A DNA stretch of 64,000 bases, taken from contig OZ024743.1 in the NCBI GenBank assembly GCA_964016885.1, positions 200,384,001 to 200,448,000 on the forward strand, in the 5' to 3' direction. Source of the DNA: Eledone cirrhosa (Eukaryota). The position numbers and the translations under genes were made by a program. Each line of letters begins with the position of its first letter. Position 1 is the stretch's first letter. Under the pieces are notes generated by a model, which saw only the letters and a list, made by a program, of their open reading frames with translations, ran no database searches and was not told the origin of the DNA. Of this stretch, positions 23,210 through 56,880 are shown one piece after another.

Positions 23210-23440
23210 TGTTTATTTATGCCCTTGAGAAGCCCAACTAGGTGCTGTTTTAAATAAACATGTTTTAACGGTCTATTCTCCGATTTCTTACGCTCTGCTA
23301 ACTCTCTAGCCCACTAAATATTAACACTTCGAATATTTAATACTGCCGGCACTAGTATCGAGCACCTTTGGCATACGCTACTTGGCAAATAACTATATGT
23401 ATCACCTATCCTCCCCTTTTGTTCTCTCTCTCGATACGTA
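23210..23440 (+). mobile_element. 3' tail fragment of the PLE family at 47380-49077
   Basis: gcccttgagaagcc...ttttaaataaa...ctgccggcactagtat matches the reverse complement of ~47380-47620; hammerhead stems II and III are deleted. Confidence 0.75.
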
Positions 23441-23447
23441 AATACTG

Positions 23448-23732: not shown

Positions 23733-24181
23733 GAAAAGGATAGGTAAATATTTAAATTATATTTTTTAATTTATTTAAAAAAATTGGTTGAATTTTGCTT
23801 GTTCTGCTTATCTTAATATATATATATATATATATAATATATATATAAGCGGAAAAAATGAAAAGAAATTTCATTTCTCACTCTTAGTACGGCTGTTACT
23901 TAATTATAAGTATGTATACGTACATACATATATACAGACGTAGAGTATATATACATACATGCACACATATATATATGTACGTATGGATTCACCGAACATT
24001 TATTATAATGCTCGGTGTGTTTGTAAACAAACATCCTGAATTAAGCCGTACAGTGTCTAGCAACCATCGTTGCTCATTTGTTCAACACTGACAAAGGAAC
24101 GCTGTACTAGTTTCAAGCTTATTAGCTATCGTCAGTAACGTATACCTTGCTGCCAGATGGTTCAATATATATATATATACA

Positions 24182-32119: not shown

Positions 32120-32413
32120 TCCAGCATAGTTACGTTCCTTTACGATATGAGTTCAAATCCCGCCGAGGTTAACTTTGCCTTTCATCCTTACGGGGTCGAT
32201 AAAATAAAGTACCAGTAATGTACTGCATAATTGCTGGCCTTGTACCTAAAATAGAAACAATTATTATTATTATTATTATGAGTTCAAATACCGCCGAGGT
32301 TAACTTTGCCTTTCATCCTTACGGTGTCGATAAAATAAAGTACCAGTAATGTACTGGATATTTGCTGGCCTTGTGCCTAAAGTAGAAACAATTATTATTA
32401 TTATTATTATTAT
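32120..32413 (+). mobile_element. Two 5'-truncated family-1 SINEs in tandem
   Basis: B box GAGTTCAAAT(C/A)CC, body and (ATT)n tail, present twice. Confidence 0.88.
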
Positions 32414-42695: not shown

Positions 42696-42903
42696 AACGA
42701 AGGAAATGTGGTACGGAACCAGGTGGACCATAACGCACCAAAGTACTCAATACTTAGAGTAGTAGAGTGGGTAATAGGAACGAGTAGGACCCCGACGGCT
42801 GAGCTCAAGCCATTTCGACGGCTAATTCTGGACTAACATTTTAGTCCAGAATTAGCCGTCGAAACGGCTTGAGCTCAGCCGTCGGGATCCTATTCGTTCC
42901 TAT
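42696..42903. mobile_element. Tail-plus-hairpin element (palindrome 42774-42903) in (TA)n
   Basis: ~63-bp arms around a ~4-nt loop; ~80-bp one-sided tail gtggtacggaaccaggtggacc...gtagagtgggta. Confidence 0.85.
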
Positions 42904-43830: not shown

Positions 43831-43961
43831 TTTCAAATCTAGGAATACATAATCCATCACGTCCCTCTTTTCACAAAGGAATAGGGTGTGATATGAAGTA
43901 GAATCGATTGCCATTTCTACACAGCTCTTCTATTGGCTCCTTTATGTACTGTATGTGAGAT

Positions 43962-46918: not shown

Positions 46919-46957
46919 TCTTAACGTTTTGGCGGACGCTAGTCCTTCATCAGAAGA
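46919..46957 (-). ncRNA. Degenerate minimal hammerhead motif
   Basis: tctt-CTGATGA-aggactagcgtcc-gcc-AAAA-CG-TT-aaga; the GAAA core is damaged. Confidence 0.4.
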
Positions 46958-47182
46958 AAGAATGAGAAATAAAATAGAAAAAAGGGACGGGTGTGATAGA
47001 ATTGGAAAAAATGTCTTTAGATGAAAATAATAGGTCCATTCATGTTGAAATCTCTTGCAAAACTGTTGGTGCTGGCGTTTTGTGTATGATTTTTATTTTA
47101 GAAAAGTGACGCGCGTCTACCTGAAATGGAAAAAAAAACGTTTTGTAAAAAGAGCTATACTTGAGCACGTGCGTAAGCATGA

Positions 47183-47351
<169 letters not shown>

Positions 47352-47379
47352 GAGATAGAGAGAGGCAGATAATATTCAA

Positions 47380-49076
47380 GTAGCAAGAGAGAGAAGGAGG
47401 GATAGGCTATACATGTAGTTATTTGCCAATAGCGTATGCAGAGGGTGCTCAATACTAGTGCCGGCAGTGTTAAATATTAGAAGTGTTAATATCTAGTGGG
47501 CGAGAGAATTAGCAGAGCGGAAGCACGTGGAGAAGTAAATAAAGGAGAACAAACCGTTAAAATATCTTTATTTAAAATACCACCTACGTACGTTTCGCCC
47601 GAATCGGCTTCTCAGGGGCATAAACAACTAAAAAGCGTTCCTTACATGACCCGGAATGGGTTTTTAGAAATGAGTTCACATCAGAGTTCATTCTTCGTAA
47701 AAAAACAAGTATTGATTTTGCAGTAGGTCAAGGGAAATAACTCTAGCCGGTGTTAGGGCAGTATTTTCCGGACGGCTTTTTTATCCGTTACTACTATATG
47801 GTTACTACCCTACCATTATCGATACGCACAGGGTCAGGTATGCAACGTTAGTTTCGAGATGTTTGTTTGCTGCGCCTGCTTGCCCGGGTCGATTCATGCC
47901 AGGTCTGGGATGCATGGTTAGTGTCCGGATGTTTTTTTGCAGCGCCTGCCCGCCGGGGTGTTAAAGTTTGGAGCAGGGAGACCCGGTTTACGGTTTCCAC
48001 TCCTCGTTCTTATTCCATTTGGAGTAGGATATATTTTAAGCGGTGTGTACAGCTTATCGTCGTTTCAGCTCTGCTGTTGATGAGCTTATGGAGTGCCGTT
48101 ATGATATGGTAGAGCTCCATGAGGCAAAGCTCGCACTTCCTCTTGAAGTTGTACGGTGCTGCTCTGCCGACAATTTCCCAGTGCGTTGAGAAGCTGTTTT
48201 TTTAGTCTTTTAATGCTGCCTAACTGATAGGGTTATATATAGGTGCACCGTAACTAGCTATAATAGCGTTAAACATTATATAGGGGCTACCTCTGGCCCG
48301 TTCAAAAATAGATTTCGAACACATCTCCACTCTTTCGCAAACAAGAAACTAAGACACTCCACTTCGCTCGCGAACTACATGACAGCATTAAAAGACTCAA
48401 ACATCAGCTTTTCCACGCACTGGGAAATTGTCGGCAGAGCAGCACCGTACGACTAAAAGAGGAAGTGCGAGCTTTGCCTCATGGAGCTCTACCATATCAT
48501 AACGGCACTCCACGAGCTCATCAACAGCAGAGCTGAAACGACGATAAGATGTACACAGCGCTTAAAAATATCCTACTCCAGATGGAATAAGAACGAGGAG
48601 TGGAAACCGTAAACCGGGTCTCCCTACACCAAACTTTAACACCCCGGCGGGCAGGCGCTGCAAAAAACATCCGGAAACTAACCATGCATCCCAAACCCGG
48701 CATGAATCGACCCGAGCGGGCAGGCGCAGCAAACAAACATCTCGAAACTAACGTTGCATACCTGACCCTGTGCGTATCGACAATGGTCGGGTAGTAACCA
48801 CATAATAGTAACGGATAAAAAAAGTCGTCCGGAAAATACTGCCCTAACACCGGCTAGAGTTATTTCCCTTGACCTACTGCAAAATCAATACTTGTTTTTT
48901 TTTACGAAGAATGAACTCTGATGTGACCTTATTTCTAAAATCCCATTCCGAGTCATGTAAGGAACGCTTTTTAGTTGTTTATGCGCTTGAGAAGCGGATT
49001 CGGGCGAAACGTACGTAGGTGGTATTTTAAATAAAGATGTTTTAACGGTTTGTTCGCCTTTATTTACTTCTCCACG

Positions 49077-49077
<1 letters not shown>
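47380..49077 (+). mobile_element. Penelope-like element 3' end (GIY-YIG with CxxC...C tail) with a ~700-bp inverted duplication
   Basis: + strand ~48217-48570 (not in the ORF track): CLTDRVIYRCTV...HYIGATSGPFKNRFRTHLHSF...TSLANY...WEIVGRAAPYD*KRKCELCLMELYHII...INSRAETTIRC. Arms ~47523-48220 and ~48382-49077. Confidence 0.88.
48983..49020 (+). ncRNA. Minimal hammerhead variant (U3-A8 core); mirror copy at 47582-47619 on the minus strand
   Basis: TTGAGAA-gcggattcgggc-GAAA-CGTACG-TA-ggt, followed by AATAAA; palindromic stem III. Confidence 0.6.
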
Positions 49078-49107
<30 letters not shown>

Positions 49108-49238: not shown

Positions 49239-49620
49239 ATTATTATACAGGCAGTATCGGTAGAGAGTCGAACGCCATGCTTTGAAGCATAGAGTTACGT
49301 CCCTTTATGATCTGAGTTCAAATCCCGCCGAGGTTAACTTTTCCTTTCATCCTTACGGGGTCGATAAAATAAAGTACCAGTAATGTACTGGGTAATTGCT
49401 GGCCTTGTGCCTAAAATAGAAACAATTATTATACAGGCACTATCGGTAGAGGGTCGGACATGCTTTCCAGCATAGTTACGTCCCTTTTTCGATCTGAGTT
49501 CAAATCCCGCCGAGGTTAACTTTGCCTTTCGTCCATACGGGGGTCGATAAAATAAAGTAGCAGTAATGTACTGGGTTATTGCTGGCCTTGTGCCGAAAGT
49601 AGAAACAATTATTATACAGG
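49239..49620 (+). mobile_element. Head-to-tail dimer of family-1 SINE
   Basis: Two near-full copies; attattatacagg at 49239, 49425 and 49608. Confidence 0.9.
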
Positions 49621-50770: not shown

Positions 50771-51267
<497 letters not shown>

Positions 51268-54704: not shown

Positions 54705-56880
54705 TATATTGTTATATTTTGGGAGGATCATGCTGCCAATAAAAACACATGCACCTGTTGGTTTTCACTTCAATTCATCATAAATTTCGGGTTGGTTGGT
54801 TGGTTCGATAACCGGATGGTTGTTTATATATTGTCAAAGCTCTTTCGTCACACATTCTGTGACCTCCTCAGTGACCGGTTTTTTATTTTGTGTCTCTCCT
54901 TTGATCTGTCCTACTCCATCTTGTTTTTGTGTGTTGTGTGCTTAGTTTGTGTATGAGTTACACCCAGGTGTATGTGTGTTTTTATTTATTTATGTTTATT
55001 TACTTGTCACTAGTTGGTTGTTTGTTCTATCTGTGTGTGTCTGATTTGTTTTGTTAGTTTTTTTGTGAGTTTGTATGTCTTCATTTTGTCCTTAATTACT
55101 AGTTGTGATGTTGCTATTCGACTCATGTTTTCTGTTTAATTTTGGCTGGAGTTTGTTTATGTTTGTCGCTTCTGTGATTTGTCTGAGCATTGCATCTTTT
55201 CTGTGTGTGGATATCATTTTTATCTCCATGTTTTCTAATGTGCACCTATGTTCTATTTTGGCATGTTGGTGGAGTACTGATGAGTGTTTCCTATCCTGGA
55301 GTTCTCGCCAGTGTTCACTTATTCTTTCTCCTACGCTAAGGGCTGTTTCACCTATGTATGTTATATTCTTATTCCTACACTGTCCCTCAGTACATCTTAT
55401 GCTATATACTACATTCCTAATTTTACAGTTTTGTTGTGGTCTTAGCTTGCAGACTACGAATTTCCTATCAGTACAGGGGGGGGGGGGGGGTCTTTGAAAT
55501 GGGTATACTTTACTAATTAGGGTTTTTATGGGAATACATGGTCTTTCAACTATCTTAATATTTAATTTGAGCTTGTATAGGTCCCCTCTAAATCTATAAG
55601 TTAGTTCGCCTCTATGGGTTGTATTGACGAACATTACAGTATGGTATTTATTGCTCTTATACCATGAGCTGATTTAATTTGCCTTATTCCTAATCCTTTC
55701 TATCCTGTTCCAAAATTTGCTCCTATATATGGAGCAAGTTCCATTTGCATTATTTTCTACAATCTTTGCCCATTTGGTTCTGGCTCCTTTATATACCTTG
55801 ATCTCTGCTTGTCGCCAGAGAACTGCATGCGGTGGGTCAAGTGTTGTATATGTCTCTCTAATTCTTTAGGGTTGCACATGTGGGACACGTTCCTCATCAC
55901 TTTTACTAAGTCCGCAATAAGTATATTGAATTTTATGTGAACCGAAACAGTTGAGTTTCGCTGGATCAGGTATTTGGAGGTCATGGGTTTGGCATAATGC
56001 GAATGGAGGATTTGCGTTCTATTGCTAATAGCTTCCCACCAGGGTTCTGTTTCTAGTACGGGTAATCTATAGTTGGGGTGTTTATTTGGGTAGTCCATAG
56101 TAATTTTAAAACTCTGGTGGATGGAGTTAGCTATTTGCTGGAGGCTTTCCATGACTGTTCCCATGTGTGGGTGTTTTTACTACGATGTTTATGTCATCTA
56201 CGTAGCGGCAGTACATAGTCAGGGTTATAAAATTGCCGTCTAATTGTTCCTTAAGTCTTCTGTCCCGCCATACCATAAATAGGCTAGCTATGTGACCTGC
56301 AATACTAATGCCAATAGCTGCCACTCTCCTTGGGCATATGTTTTGCCATTAAATTTGAACATAGGTTCCTTAAGGGTTAATCTTATACTGGCCCCCATCG
56401 CACGCGCGATCATTTTTTTTAAATTCATCGTGGTTTTCAAGGCTCCGTATGGTTCTTGTCCACCCGCTCCACCATTCTGTGTGAGTCTTCTTGGCCATTG
56501 CGGTAACAGTAGGTGGTCTGCTTCTTTCTGGCCTTGTTGGCTGCTGAGGTCATGTGTGTCTAAATACTCCTTATTGTATGTGAGTTTAAGTAGAAGTCCC
56601 AGCTCACTGGTATCAATCTCATGGAATACCACATACCTCTCGCTGGTCATTTCTACGCATTTTTCCACAGCAAAATCAACGATGGATGGGTATAGAGATA
56701 CGACATCCATGCTACCTATTGCACAGCCTGTTAGGTTCCTAGACAGATTGCATTCGCTGATTCTGCAGAGGAGATCCTCCGTGCTGTAGCATTTATCTGG
56801 GGACATCTAGATGATAAAGCGCATGATCAGGGACAGGAAGTAAGAGATCCTGTGGTTGCTAGCAATTGGACCTCCACAGA
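54705..56880 (-). mobile_element. Penelope-like element: decayed RT plus C-terminal GIY-YIG endonuclease
   Basis: RT motifs GSMDVVSLYPSI, AIGISIAGHIASLFM, YCRYVDDI, LPVLE...YAKPM. Endonuclease NVVYSIRC...YIGETALSVGERISEH...RQITEA...LNRK, stop at 55092. Confidence 0.9.
54833..54875 (-). ncRNA. Minimal type I hammerhead ribozyme in the PLE 3'UTR
   Basis: gtca-CTGAGGA-g gtcaca gaatg tgtgac-GAAA-GAGC-TT-tgac; perfect stems I and II. Confidence 0.8.

What the first reader, a model, noticed from the sequence alone, without database searches (positions are those of the whole stretch)
47380..49077. 1.7-kb inverted PLE structure with an unusual GIY-YIG and U3-A8 hammerhead
The endonuclease (CL..VIY..YIG..FK.R..H..SF..W.I..CxxC..E..N.R.E..C) resembles the Hydra-type PLE group rather than the one at 55 kb, and is absent from the ORF track. 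The ~700-bp arms flank a ~160-bp spacer, and the inverted arm extends further, the same asymmetry as the small palindromes. This links those non-coding hairpins to PLE integration. Two of three family copies read UUGAGAA, a compensatory 3-8 core pair.
Basis: partly seen in the sequence, partly recalled or inferred. Interest (0 to 1): 0.7.

Follow-up and report, generated by a model that had tools for sequence, protein, structure and literature searches.

The report
Head-to-head Hydra Penelope retroelement stump
This 1.7-kb mirror repeat is two cut-short, decayed tail ends of a Hydra-type Penelope-like jumping gene joined head to head in a TA repeat, a known kind of insertion; sister copies suggest both halves were likely written in one event from two fixed start points, and the family carries a known U-A variant of a predicted self-cutting hammerhead RNA.

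Summary
Observation confirmed: 694-bp arms, 94% alike, 164-nt spacer, left arm ~155 nt longer at its outer end, (TA)n outside. The parent is a Hydra-clade Penelope-like element (PLE; ~3.45-kb unit) meeting the published Hydra motifs I could test. UUGAGAA (U3-A8) is the family majority (38 of 41 copies; 113 exact genomic matches versus 0 with C3-G8), but U3-A8, inverted truncated copies and one-sided tails are all in print, and both hammerheads at this locus are damaged. Additions: (1) the tail is ~155 nt (published 30-40) and is the element's own 5' leader; (2) 32 of 34 head-to-head pairs join one tail-less end to one tailed end, in 19 of 32 with the tail on the arm starting further 3', which favours priming from both DNA ends over simple fold-back; (3) a second Hydra family, parent of the 42.7-kb palindrome, has U3-A8 in its young subfamily and unpaired C3·A8 in a more diverged one (56 of 57), and does not group with this family (p-AU 0.00025). 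Cleavage, expression and editing untested. The scan noted similar insertions, two-start-point readings and U3-A8 cores elsewhere in this genome.

The parts
47184..47371 (.). (TA)n then (GA)n microsatellite flanking the tailed end; the (TA)n is the likely target
   Evidence: tailed ends of sister copies also end in (TC)n/(TA)n
47372..47524 (-). ~155-nt 'tail' (end B): the element's own 5' leader, present on this arm only
   Evidence: in tandem copies L032 and L067 the tail runs on 46-47 nt to the ORF's ATG; L053 also runs into the ORF
47525..48218 (-). left arm: 5'-truncated inverted copy (end of endonuclease, 3' UTR, hammerhead)
   Evidence: 94% identical to right arm
47577..47621 (-). left hammerhead motif, damaged: CUGAGAA (C3·A8), stem II 3 of 4 pairs
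48216..48218 (.). head-to-head junction with 3-nt overlap (CTG)
   Evidence: BLAST overlap 3 nt; sister copies read GGTAACTG|CCT; the strict measure did not score it
48219..49077 (+). right arm: longer 5'-truncated copy ending at end A (no tail); 48219-48382 is the unpaired 164-nt spacer
48217..48612 (+). remnant of Hydra-type GIY-YIG endonuclease (VIY..YIG without CCHH cysteines, CxxC before E, CxH site after N decayed to CTQ here); stop at 48454-48456
48641..48781 (+). two ~70-nt tandem units (78% alike) in the 3' UTR, shared by the family
48981..49025 (+). right hammerhead motif: UUGAGAA (U3-A8), palindromic short stem III, predicted cut after 49017; stem II 2 of 4 pairs and stem I mismatch, so predicted inactive
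49078..49103 (.). (TA)n flanking end A
   Evidence: 67 of 72 A-ends of sister copies are followed by a TA run
23212..23445 (+). third window copy of the family: short 3' stub plus tail, hammerhead second half deleted

Best explanation
This is a decayed, 5'-truncated head-to-head insertion of a Hydra-clade Penelope-like retrotransposon in a (TA)n repeat, likely made in one event in which both ends of the target cut primed reverse transcription on the element's RNA at two fixed internal start points about 155 nt apart. Shown: identity of the parent, the two fixed 3' ends (A and B), the tail being the element's 5' leader, one A and one B end per pair, TA targeting, damage to this copy. Inferred: the endonuclease cut both strands; one end was extended from B (tail included) and the other from A; both cDNAs stopped early and were joined at their 3' ends, often over 2-4 nt of microhomology. 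The family hammerhead (UUGAGAA, GCCC/GGGC stem II, self-complementary ACGUACGU stem III) is predicted to be a dimer-type minimal ribozyme kept by selection on source elements; its cleavage is likely not needed for insertion, and the two copies here would not cut.
For: Parent ORF has RVRWKA, SDKT, MGSSDSAQ..YRDD, CxCX5C, no CCHH, CxxC..E..N..CxH = Hydra definition; nearest proteins are Hydra-like. Of 44 head-to-head junctions, 10 with an arm ending internally were dropped; of 34, 32 are A+B, 1 A+partial tail, 1 B+B, 0 A+A, while single ends split 80 A: 80 B: 5 partial of 165 (p 2e-9 against 50%). In 19 of 32 the tailed arm starts 3' of the other arm (5 are tail only), so neither arm contains the other. 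Microhomology >=2 nt in 12 of 34 junctions versus 14.8% by chance (p 0.0025). The window's arms are closer to each other (94.5%) than to any of 73 other copies (max 93.5%). In vitro a PLE protein cuts and extends both strands and starts at two internal sites bounding the tail, and hammerhead mutants still insert (PMC11167929). Hammerhead 41 of 42 positions kept between two subfamily majorities whose flanks are 311 of 393 identical (p 0.0016). None of 85 5' truncations lies within 5 nt of the predicted cut.
Against: All mechanism evidence is genomic; no biochemistry for a Hydra element. Only 7 of 14 pairs with long overlap have arms above the 95th percentile of other copies. 15 of 34 junctions show inserted or mutated bases rather than overlap. 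No significant bias for the tailed arm to be shorter (19:11, p 0.20). Loci were picked by similarity or by an intact hammerhead pattern, not at random. Target-site duplications are hidden by (TA)n. The stretch just downstream of the hammerhead is also conserved between subfamilies, so the conservation may reflect a protein-binding element rather than catalysis.
Confidence: 0.65

Rival explanations
1. Same element, but the mirror arises by self-priming (fold-back) of one strand, and the tail is then trimmed from one arm when the endonuclease resolves the intermediate.
For: Self-priming was proposed for head-to-head PLE repeats with palindromic junctions (PMC3846280) and the tail was ascribed to endonuclease resolution (PMC8557442); short junction overlaps fit; in the 42.7-kb family about half of 20 loci turn round at nearly one self-complementary spot (by eye).
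Against: Without trimming it cannot give the 19 of 32 pairs, the window's included, in which the tail is on the arm that starts further 3'; with trimming it needs a precise ~155-nt offset at A on either arm; in vitro the tail ends are RT start sites.
Confidence: 0.25
2. Two independent insertions of the same family into one TA run, or a later DNA-level inverted duplication.
For: TA runs attract many PLE insertions in this window; some pairs have arms no closer than unrelated copies (L082, L214, L070).
Against: No TA or host DNA at the junction; 0 A+A and 1 B+B among 34; window arms share 15 of 33-35 differences from the family majority and are closer to each other than to 73 other copies.
Confidence: 0.05
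3. The locus is a functional host hairpin (editing substrate, siRNA source) or an active ribozyme switch.
For: If transcribed, 694-bp arms at 94% identity would form long double-stranded RNA (duplex energy); PLE copies give small RNAs in rotifers.
Against: Arms have drifted 6% apart with indels, the ORF has a stop, both hammerheads are damaged; the window's longer ORFs are mostly other retroelements or low-complexity (by eye).
Confidence: 0.05

Closest known systems
Hydra-clade PLEs (Craig et al. 2021, PMC8557442): Hydra-1_Obim, Penelope-13_HM
   Same: C-terminal GIY-YIG without CCHH, CxCX5C linker, RWK and DKT motifs, CxxC/CxH, (TA)n targeting, hammerhead in 3' region; Penelope-13_HM has a 5'-truncated inverted copy; Hydra-1_Obim is from an octopus.
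   Different: A different family (N-terminal and RT sequence differ from Hydra-1_Obim as displayed, compared by eye); ~3.45-kb unit and ~940-codon ORF with two long inserts versus generally <3 kb; all Hydra hammerheads listed in File S2 have C3-G8; tail ~155 nt versus 30-40 bp.
Minimal hammerheads of PLE pseudo-LTRs, U3-A8 variant of Schistosoma mansoni Cercyon (Cervera and de la Pena 2014, PMC4209133); natural U3-A8 also in Perreault et al. 2011 (PMC3088659)
   Same: Type I layout, short palindromic stem III predicted to work as a dimer, U3-A8 covariation, dual motifs on opposite strands near each other.
   Different: Here in the Hydra clade; 4-bp stem II with no extra base after A9; a sister family shows an amplified C3·A8 state.
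Penelope insertions of Adineta vaga (Arkhipova et al. 2013, PMC3846280) and PAc of Anolis (Frangieh et al. 2024, PMC11167929)
   Same: Inverted pseudo-LTR with a tail on one of the two copies; N-rich inserts in the ORF; tail bounded by two RT start sites.
   Different: Tail five times longer and lying wholly upstream of the ATG; a counted one-A-one-B rule was not found in my searches.
LINE-1 twin priming (recalled, no call)
   Same: Both target ends prime cDNA on the RNA; products joined by microhomology; the 5 tail-only pairs are non-duplicating inversions.
   Different: Here both start points are fixed and internal, and the arms usually overlap, giving inverted repeats.

Membership tests
Hydra-clade PLE | Single ORF with PLE RT and C-terminal GIY-YIG | tested here: met
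   L031-L036 give RT core, thumb and endonuclease in one run, broken by stops and frameshifts in each copy
Hydra-clade PLE | RWK motif and DKG changed to DKT | tested here: met
   RRVRWKA and VTSDKT in L033; SDKT in L031, L032
Hydra-clade PLE | CCHH absent; linker CxCX5C | tested here: met
   one Cys between VIY and YIG; CNCRDRGRC; the 55-kb endonuclease has two Cys there
Hydra-clade PLE | [quoted passage not shown] | tested here: met
   CELCLME..INSR..CTH in family copies; CTQ in the window's right arm
Hydra-clade PLE | Insertion into (TA)n | tested here: met
   67 of 72 A-ends followed by a TA run
Hydra-clade PLE | Placement inside the Hydra clade in an RT tree with named references and other PLE clades | tested here: inconclusive
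   trees hold only unnamed Hydra-like relatives, quick method, no named Hydra reference and no other PLE clade
Hydra-clade PLE | Generally under 3 kb (descriptive) | tested here: not met
   ~3.45 kb because of two ORF inserts; a tendency, not a diagnostic motif (Penelope-13_HM is 3045)
PLE hammerhead (type I, minimal) | Core with 3-8 pair, stem II, GAAA, UH site, stem I in the family majority | tested here: met
   UUGAGAA GCCC AUUC GGGC GAAA CGUACG UA GGUGC; stem I is short and bulged
PLE hammerhead (type I, minimal) | Intact motif at this locus | tested here: not met
   right arm stem II 2 of 4 pairs; left arm C3·A8 and 3 of 4 pairs
PLE hammerhead (type I, minimal) | Self-cleavage | not testable with these tools
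   needs an assay; Rfam listing showed no hammerhead family among the 150 of 190 rows shown; monomer fold not favoured over shuffles

The most novel reading that the evidence does not exclude
Octopod Hydra elements swapped the hammerhead's 3-8 pair from C-G to U-A at least twice, once through an unpaired C3·A8 state that still amplified (odds ~0.35 for this part); boldest form: the C3·A8 ribozyme is switched on by host A-to-I editing of A8, so that editing gates cleavage of the transposon RNA and only unedited, uncut RNA is copied. Against it: 0 of 57 such copies carry G8, and nothing on editing was measured.
Probability: 0.04. Interest if true: 0.85.

Novelty: new member of a known kind. Interest (0 to 1): 0.3.

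Why it matters
The locus itself is a dead transposon stump. Its family gives a cheap test of how Penelope-like elements make inverted repeats, an open question in the papers read: the unusually long tail makes the two ends easy to tell apart, and the one-A-one-B rule predicts two RT start sites 155 nt apart used on opposite ends of one cut. The set of Hydra families in this genome, some young with open ORFs, offers a natural series of hammerhead cores (C3-G8, U4C, C3·A8, U3-A8) to ask whether PLE hammerheads need to cut at all.

Tried and rejected
Rfam scan: only microsatellite-driven miRNA noise in the rows shown. Pfam found nothing for the window fragment or two family ORF pieces. Expression/editing: no RNA holder listed; the three listed runs are contigs of one sample and add only that the family is abundant there. 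MFE folding does not favour the monomer hammerhead (z between -0.73 and 0.68 in 5 of 5 folds), as expected for dimer-type motifs, so it is no support. Idea that copies start at the hammerhead cut: 0 of 85 truncations within 5 nt. Idea that the tailed arm is systematically shorter (trailing RT): 19:11, p 0.20, not supported. Idea that the half-deleted hammerhead at 23.2 kb marks a subfamily: seen in no other of 343 loci held. Parent of the 15.1-kb palindrome: an endonuclease ORF 1.7 kb upstream in 1 of 6 extended loci could be a separate insertion. My first window-wide hammerhead script missed both arms because their stems are broken; one search counts include duplicates and were replaced. One search covered the wrong stretch and only returned more copies of the same family. 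The DNA tree held almost only young copies and does not order the two subfamilies. The careful tree did not finish; quick trees were used.

Full report
Observation. The inverted repeat is real: 47525-48218 pairs with 48383-49077 at 657 of 697 columns (94%), with 164 nt between. The left arm continues ~153 nt to 47372 and then meets (CT)n and (TA)n; the right arm stops at 49077 in (TA)n. The right arm begins inside an endonuclease: CLTDRVIY..YIG..FK.R..H..SF..W.I..CELCLME..NSRAE..C at 48217-48606, with a stop at 48454 and no start codon, which explains its absence from an ORF track; Pfam does not see it. It matches the Hydra-like protein P0005 at 44% (E 4e-20) and not the 55-kb endonuclease (E 7.2), which has two cysteines between its VVY and YIG motifs.

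Parent. A DNA search of the own genome (3.0 Gb) gave 2522 candidates; the 40 scored gave full-length or near-full-length hits at 88-100%. Eleven extended loci give a ~3.45-kb unit with one ORF of about 940 codons, broken in every copy examined, carrying RRVRWKA, VTSDKT, MGSSDSAQATDLVG..YRDD, CNCRDRGRC (CxCX5C), a GIY-YIG without CCHH, and CxxC..E..N..CxH. These are the Hydra features in PMC8557442 (section 11 read whole; other passages; supplement part 2 and searches), which lists Hydra-1_Obim from an octopus and Penelope-13_HM with an inverted truncated copy. Named protein relatives come from Argonauta, Octopus bimaculoides and a sea cucumber (3 of 40 rows named), so the host is likely an octopod (inference). 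The family is not Hydra-1_Obim (by eye) and has two long ORF inserts; N-rich ORF inserts are known from rotifer PLEs (PMC3846280, passages).

The tail. Copies end at two fixed points, A (..CTCCACGT) and B (~155 nt further): 80 A, 80 B and 5 partial among 165 ends; 67 of 72 A-ends are followed by a TA run. In tandem copies the tail runs on 46-47 nt to the ATG (L032, L067), so it is the next unit's 5' leader. Published tails are 30-40 bp and optional on one inverted copy; in vitro the tail lies between two internal RT start sites, the protein cuts and extends both strands, and hammerhead mutants still insert (PMC11167929, parts 1-2 of 4 and a term search).

How the mirror likely forms. Among loci L001-L101 and L194-L253 I found 44 distinct head-to-head junctions; 10 with an arm ending internally were dropped. 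Of 34, 32 join an A end to a B end, 1 A to a partial tail, 1 B to B, none A to A (p 2e-9 against an even split; in L032 the B end lies at the far end of a tandem). In 19 of the 32 the tailed arm starts 3' of the other (5 are tail alone), in 11 it starts 5', in 2 level. When the tail is on the arm that starts further 3', as in the window, neither arm contains the other, so one strand folding back on itself cannot make both unless the tail is trimmed afterwards. Junction overlap of 2 nt or more occurs in 12 of 34 against 14.8% by chance (p 0.0025), while 15 of 34 show extra or mutated bases. The window's arms are closer to each other than to any of 73 other copies, but only 7 of 14 pairs exceed the 95th percentile. 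I infer priming from both target ends at A and B, akin to LINE-1 twin priming (recalled). Searches for this rule in print found nothing relevant (PMC2377424 two passages), though one-sided tails are described. The sample is biased to well-kept copies.

The hammerhead. The majority reads UUGAGAA GCCC AUUC GGGC GAAA CGUACG UA^GGUGC with a self-complementary stem III (dimer duplex -11.8 kcal/mol, no monomer fold of that piece). Exact genomic matches: 113 with U3-A8, 0 with C3-G8 under two patterns. In loci not picked by that pattern, 38 of 41 are U3-A8, 2 C3·A8, 1 gapped; a sister subfamily has 20 of 25 UUGAGAA, 2 CUGAGAA, 1 UGGAGAA, 2 unread, and the two majorities agree at 41 of 42 motif positions against 311 of 393 in the flanks (p 0.0016). 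U3-A8 is published for Schistosoma PLEs (PMC4209133, parts 1-2 of 4) and for other natural hammerheads, active in vitro (PMC3088659, passages); the Hydra hammerheads tabulated in PMC8557442 File S2 are all C3-G8. At this locus both copies are damaged. No 5' truncation falls within 5 nt of the predicted cut (0 of 85).

Small palindromes and a second family. The 42.7-kb palindrome is the end of another Hydra family (3.53-kb unit, ~78-nt tail). A pattern open at positions 3, 7 and 8 found 57 exact copies of its more diverged subfamily: 56 C3·A8, 1 U3-A8, 0 G8. Its young subfamily (20 loci picked by open ORF; most rows 96-100% alike to one copy) has U3-A8 in 29 of 30 motif rows. Five other Hydra families here keep C3-G8: CCGAAGA and CCGAUGA (U4C) in the two nearest to the window's family, CUGAUGA, CUGAGGA, CUGACGA in the others (two of these rest on one copy read by eye). 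A tree holding the two U3-A8 families together is rejected (p-AU 0.00025, 15 rows, quick tree, group named after seeing the first tree). This suggests two origins of U3-A8 and a transposition-competent unpaired state, unless 3' modules were swapped between families; the order of C3·A8 and U3-A8 is not established. The 15.1-kb palindrome family shows the same one-sided tail (~35 nt) but no proven parent.

Verdict. A new family of a known clade, in a known insertion layout, with a known core variant; this copy is dead. Cleavage, transcription and editing are untested. Earlier scan notes (looked up after my reading was formed) report like insertions, two fixed start points and U3-A8 cores on other DNA; look-ups by this sequence and for the C3·A8 state returned nothing. 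The retrozyme preprint 10.64898/2026.07.22.740005 (term search) and PMC7151607 (one passage) added nothing on these points.

Noticed in passing
window 42697-42903; L142, L193, L304-L343: Palindromic end of a second Hydra family whose hammerhead has a long loop II and 6-bp stem III; C3·A8 in 56 of 57 copies of one subfamily, U3-A8 in the young subfamily; many short copies turn round at nearly the same spot in loop II.
   Followed up: yes
L175, L176, L182, L188-L191 (G000): Very young Hydra family with many open 832-codon frames and a U4C hammerhead core (CCGAAGA); a candidate for biochemistry.
   Followed up: partly
window 15125-15419; L123-L141: Palindrome with ~35-nt one-sided tail; longer sister copies hold a hammerhead-like relic reading CUGAUCA..UCAAA in place of CUGANGA..GAAA (by eye); parent not established.
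   Followed up: partly
window 14533-14949 and 50771-51267: Two more palindromes; the first has a one-sided extension, the second has (TA)n in its centre as well as on one flank, unlike the head-to-head type.
   Followed up: no
window ~1010-1095 (-), ~24095-24150 (-), ~46920-46960 (-), ~54820-54875 (-): Further hammerhead-like motifs with C3-G8 cores (CUGACGA, CUGACGA, CUGAUGA, CUGAGGA); the last lies downstream of the broken non-Hydra PLE at 55.1-56.8 kb.
   Followed up: no
window 23212-23445: Family stub whose hammerhead lacks its GAAACGUACG half; the deletion was not seen in other loci held.
   Followed up: partly
window 9.5-11.7, 19.4-22.3, 26.9-32.1, 35.0-38.7 kb: Several related non-LTR retrotransposon copies (70-92% alike) with endonuclease and RT remnants; a short interspersed repeat occurs at 43960, 49240-49620 (two tandem copies), 50187, 32120-32400 and 59030.
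   Followed up: no
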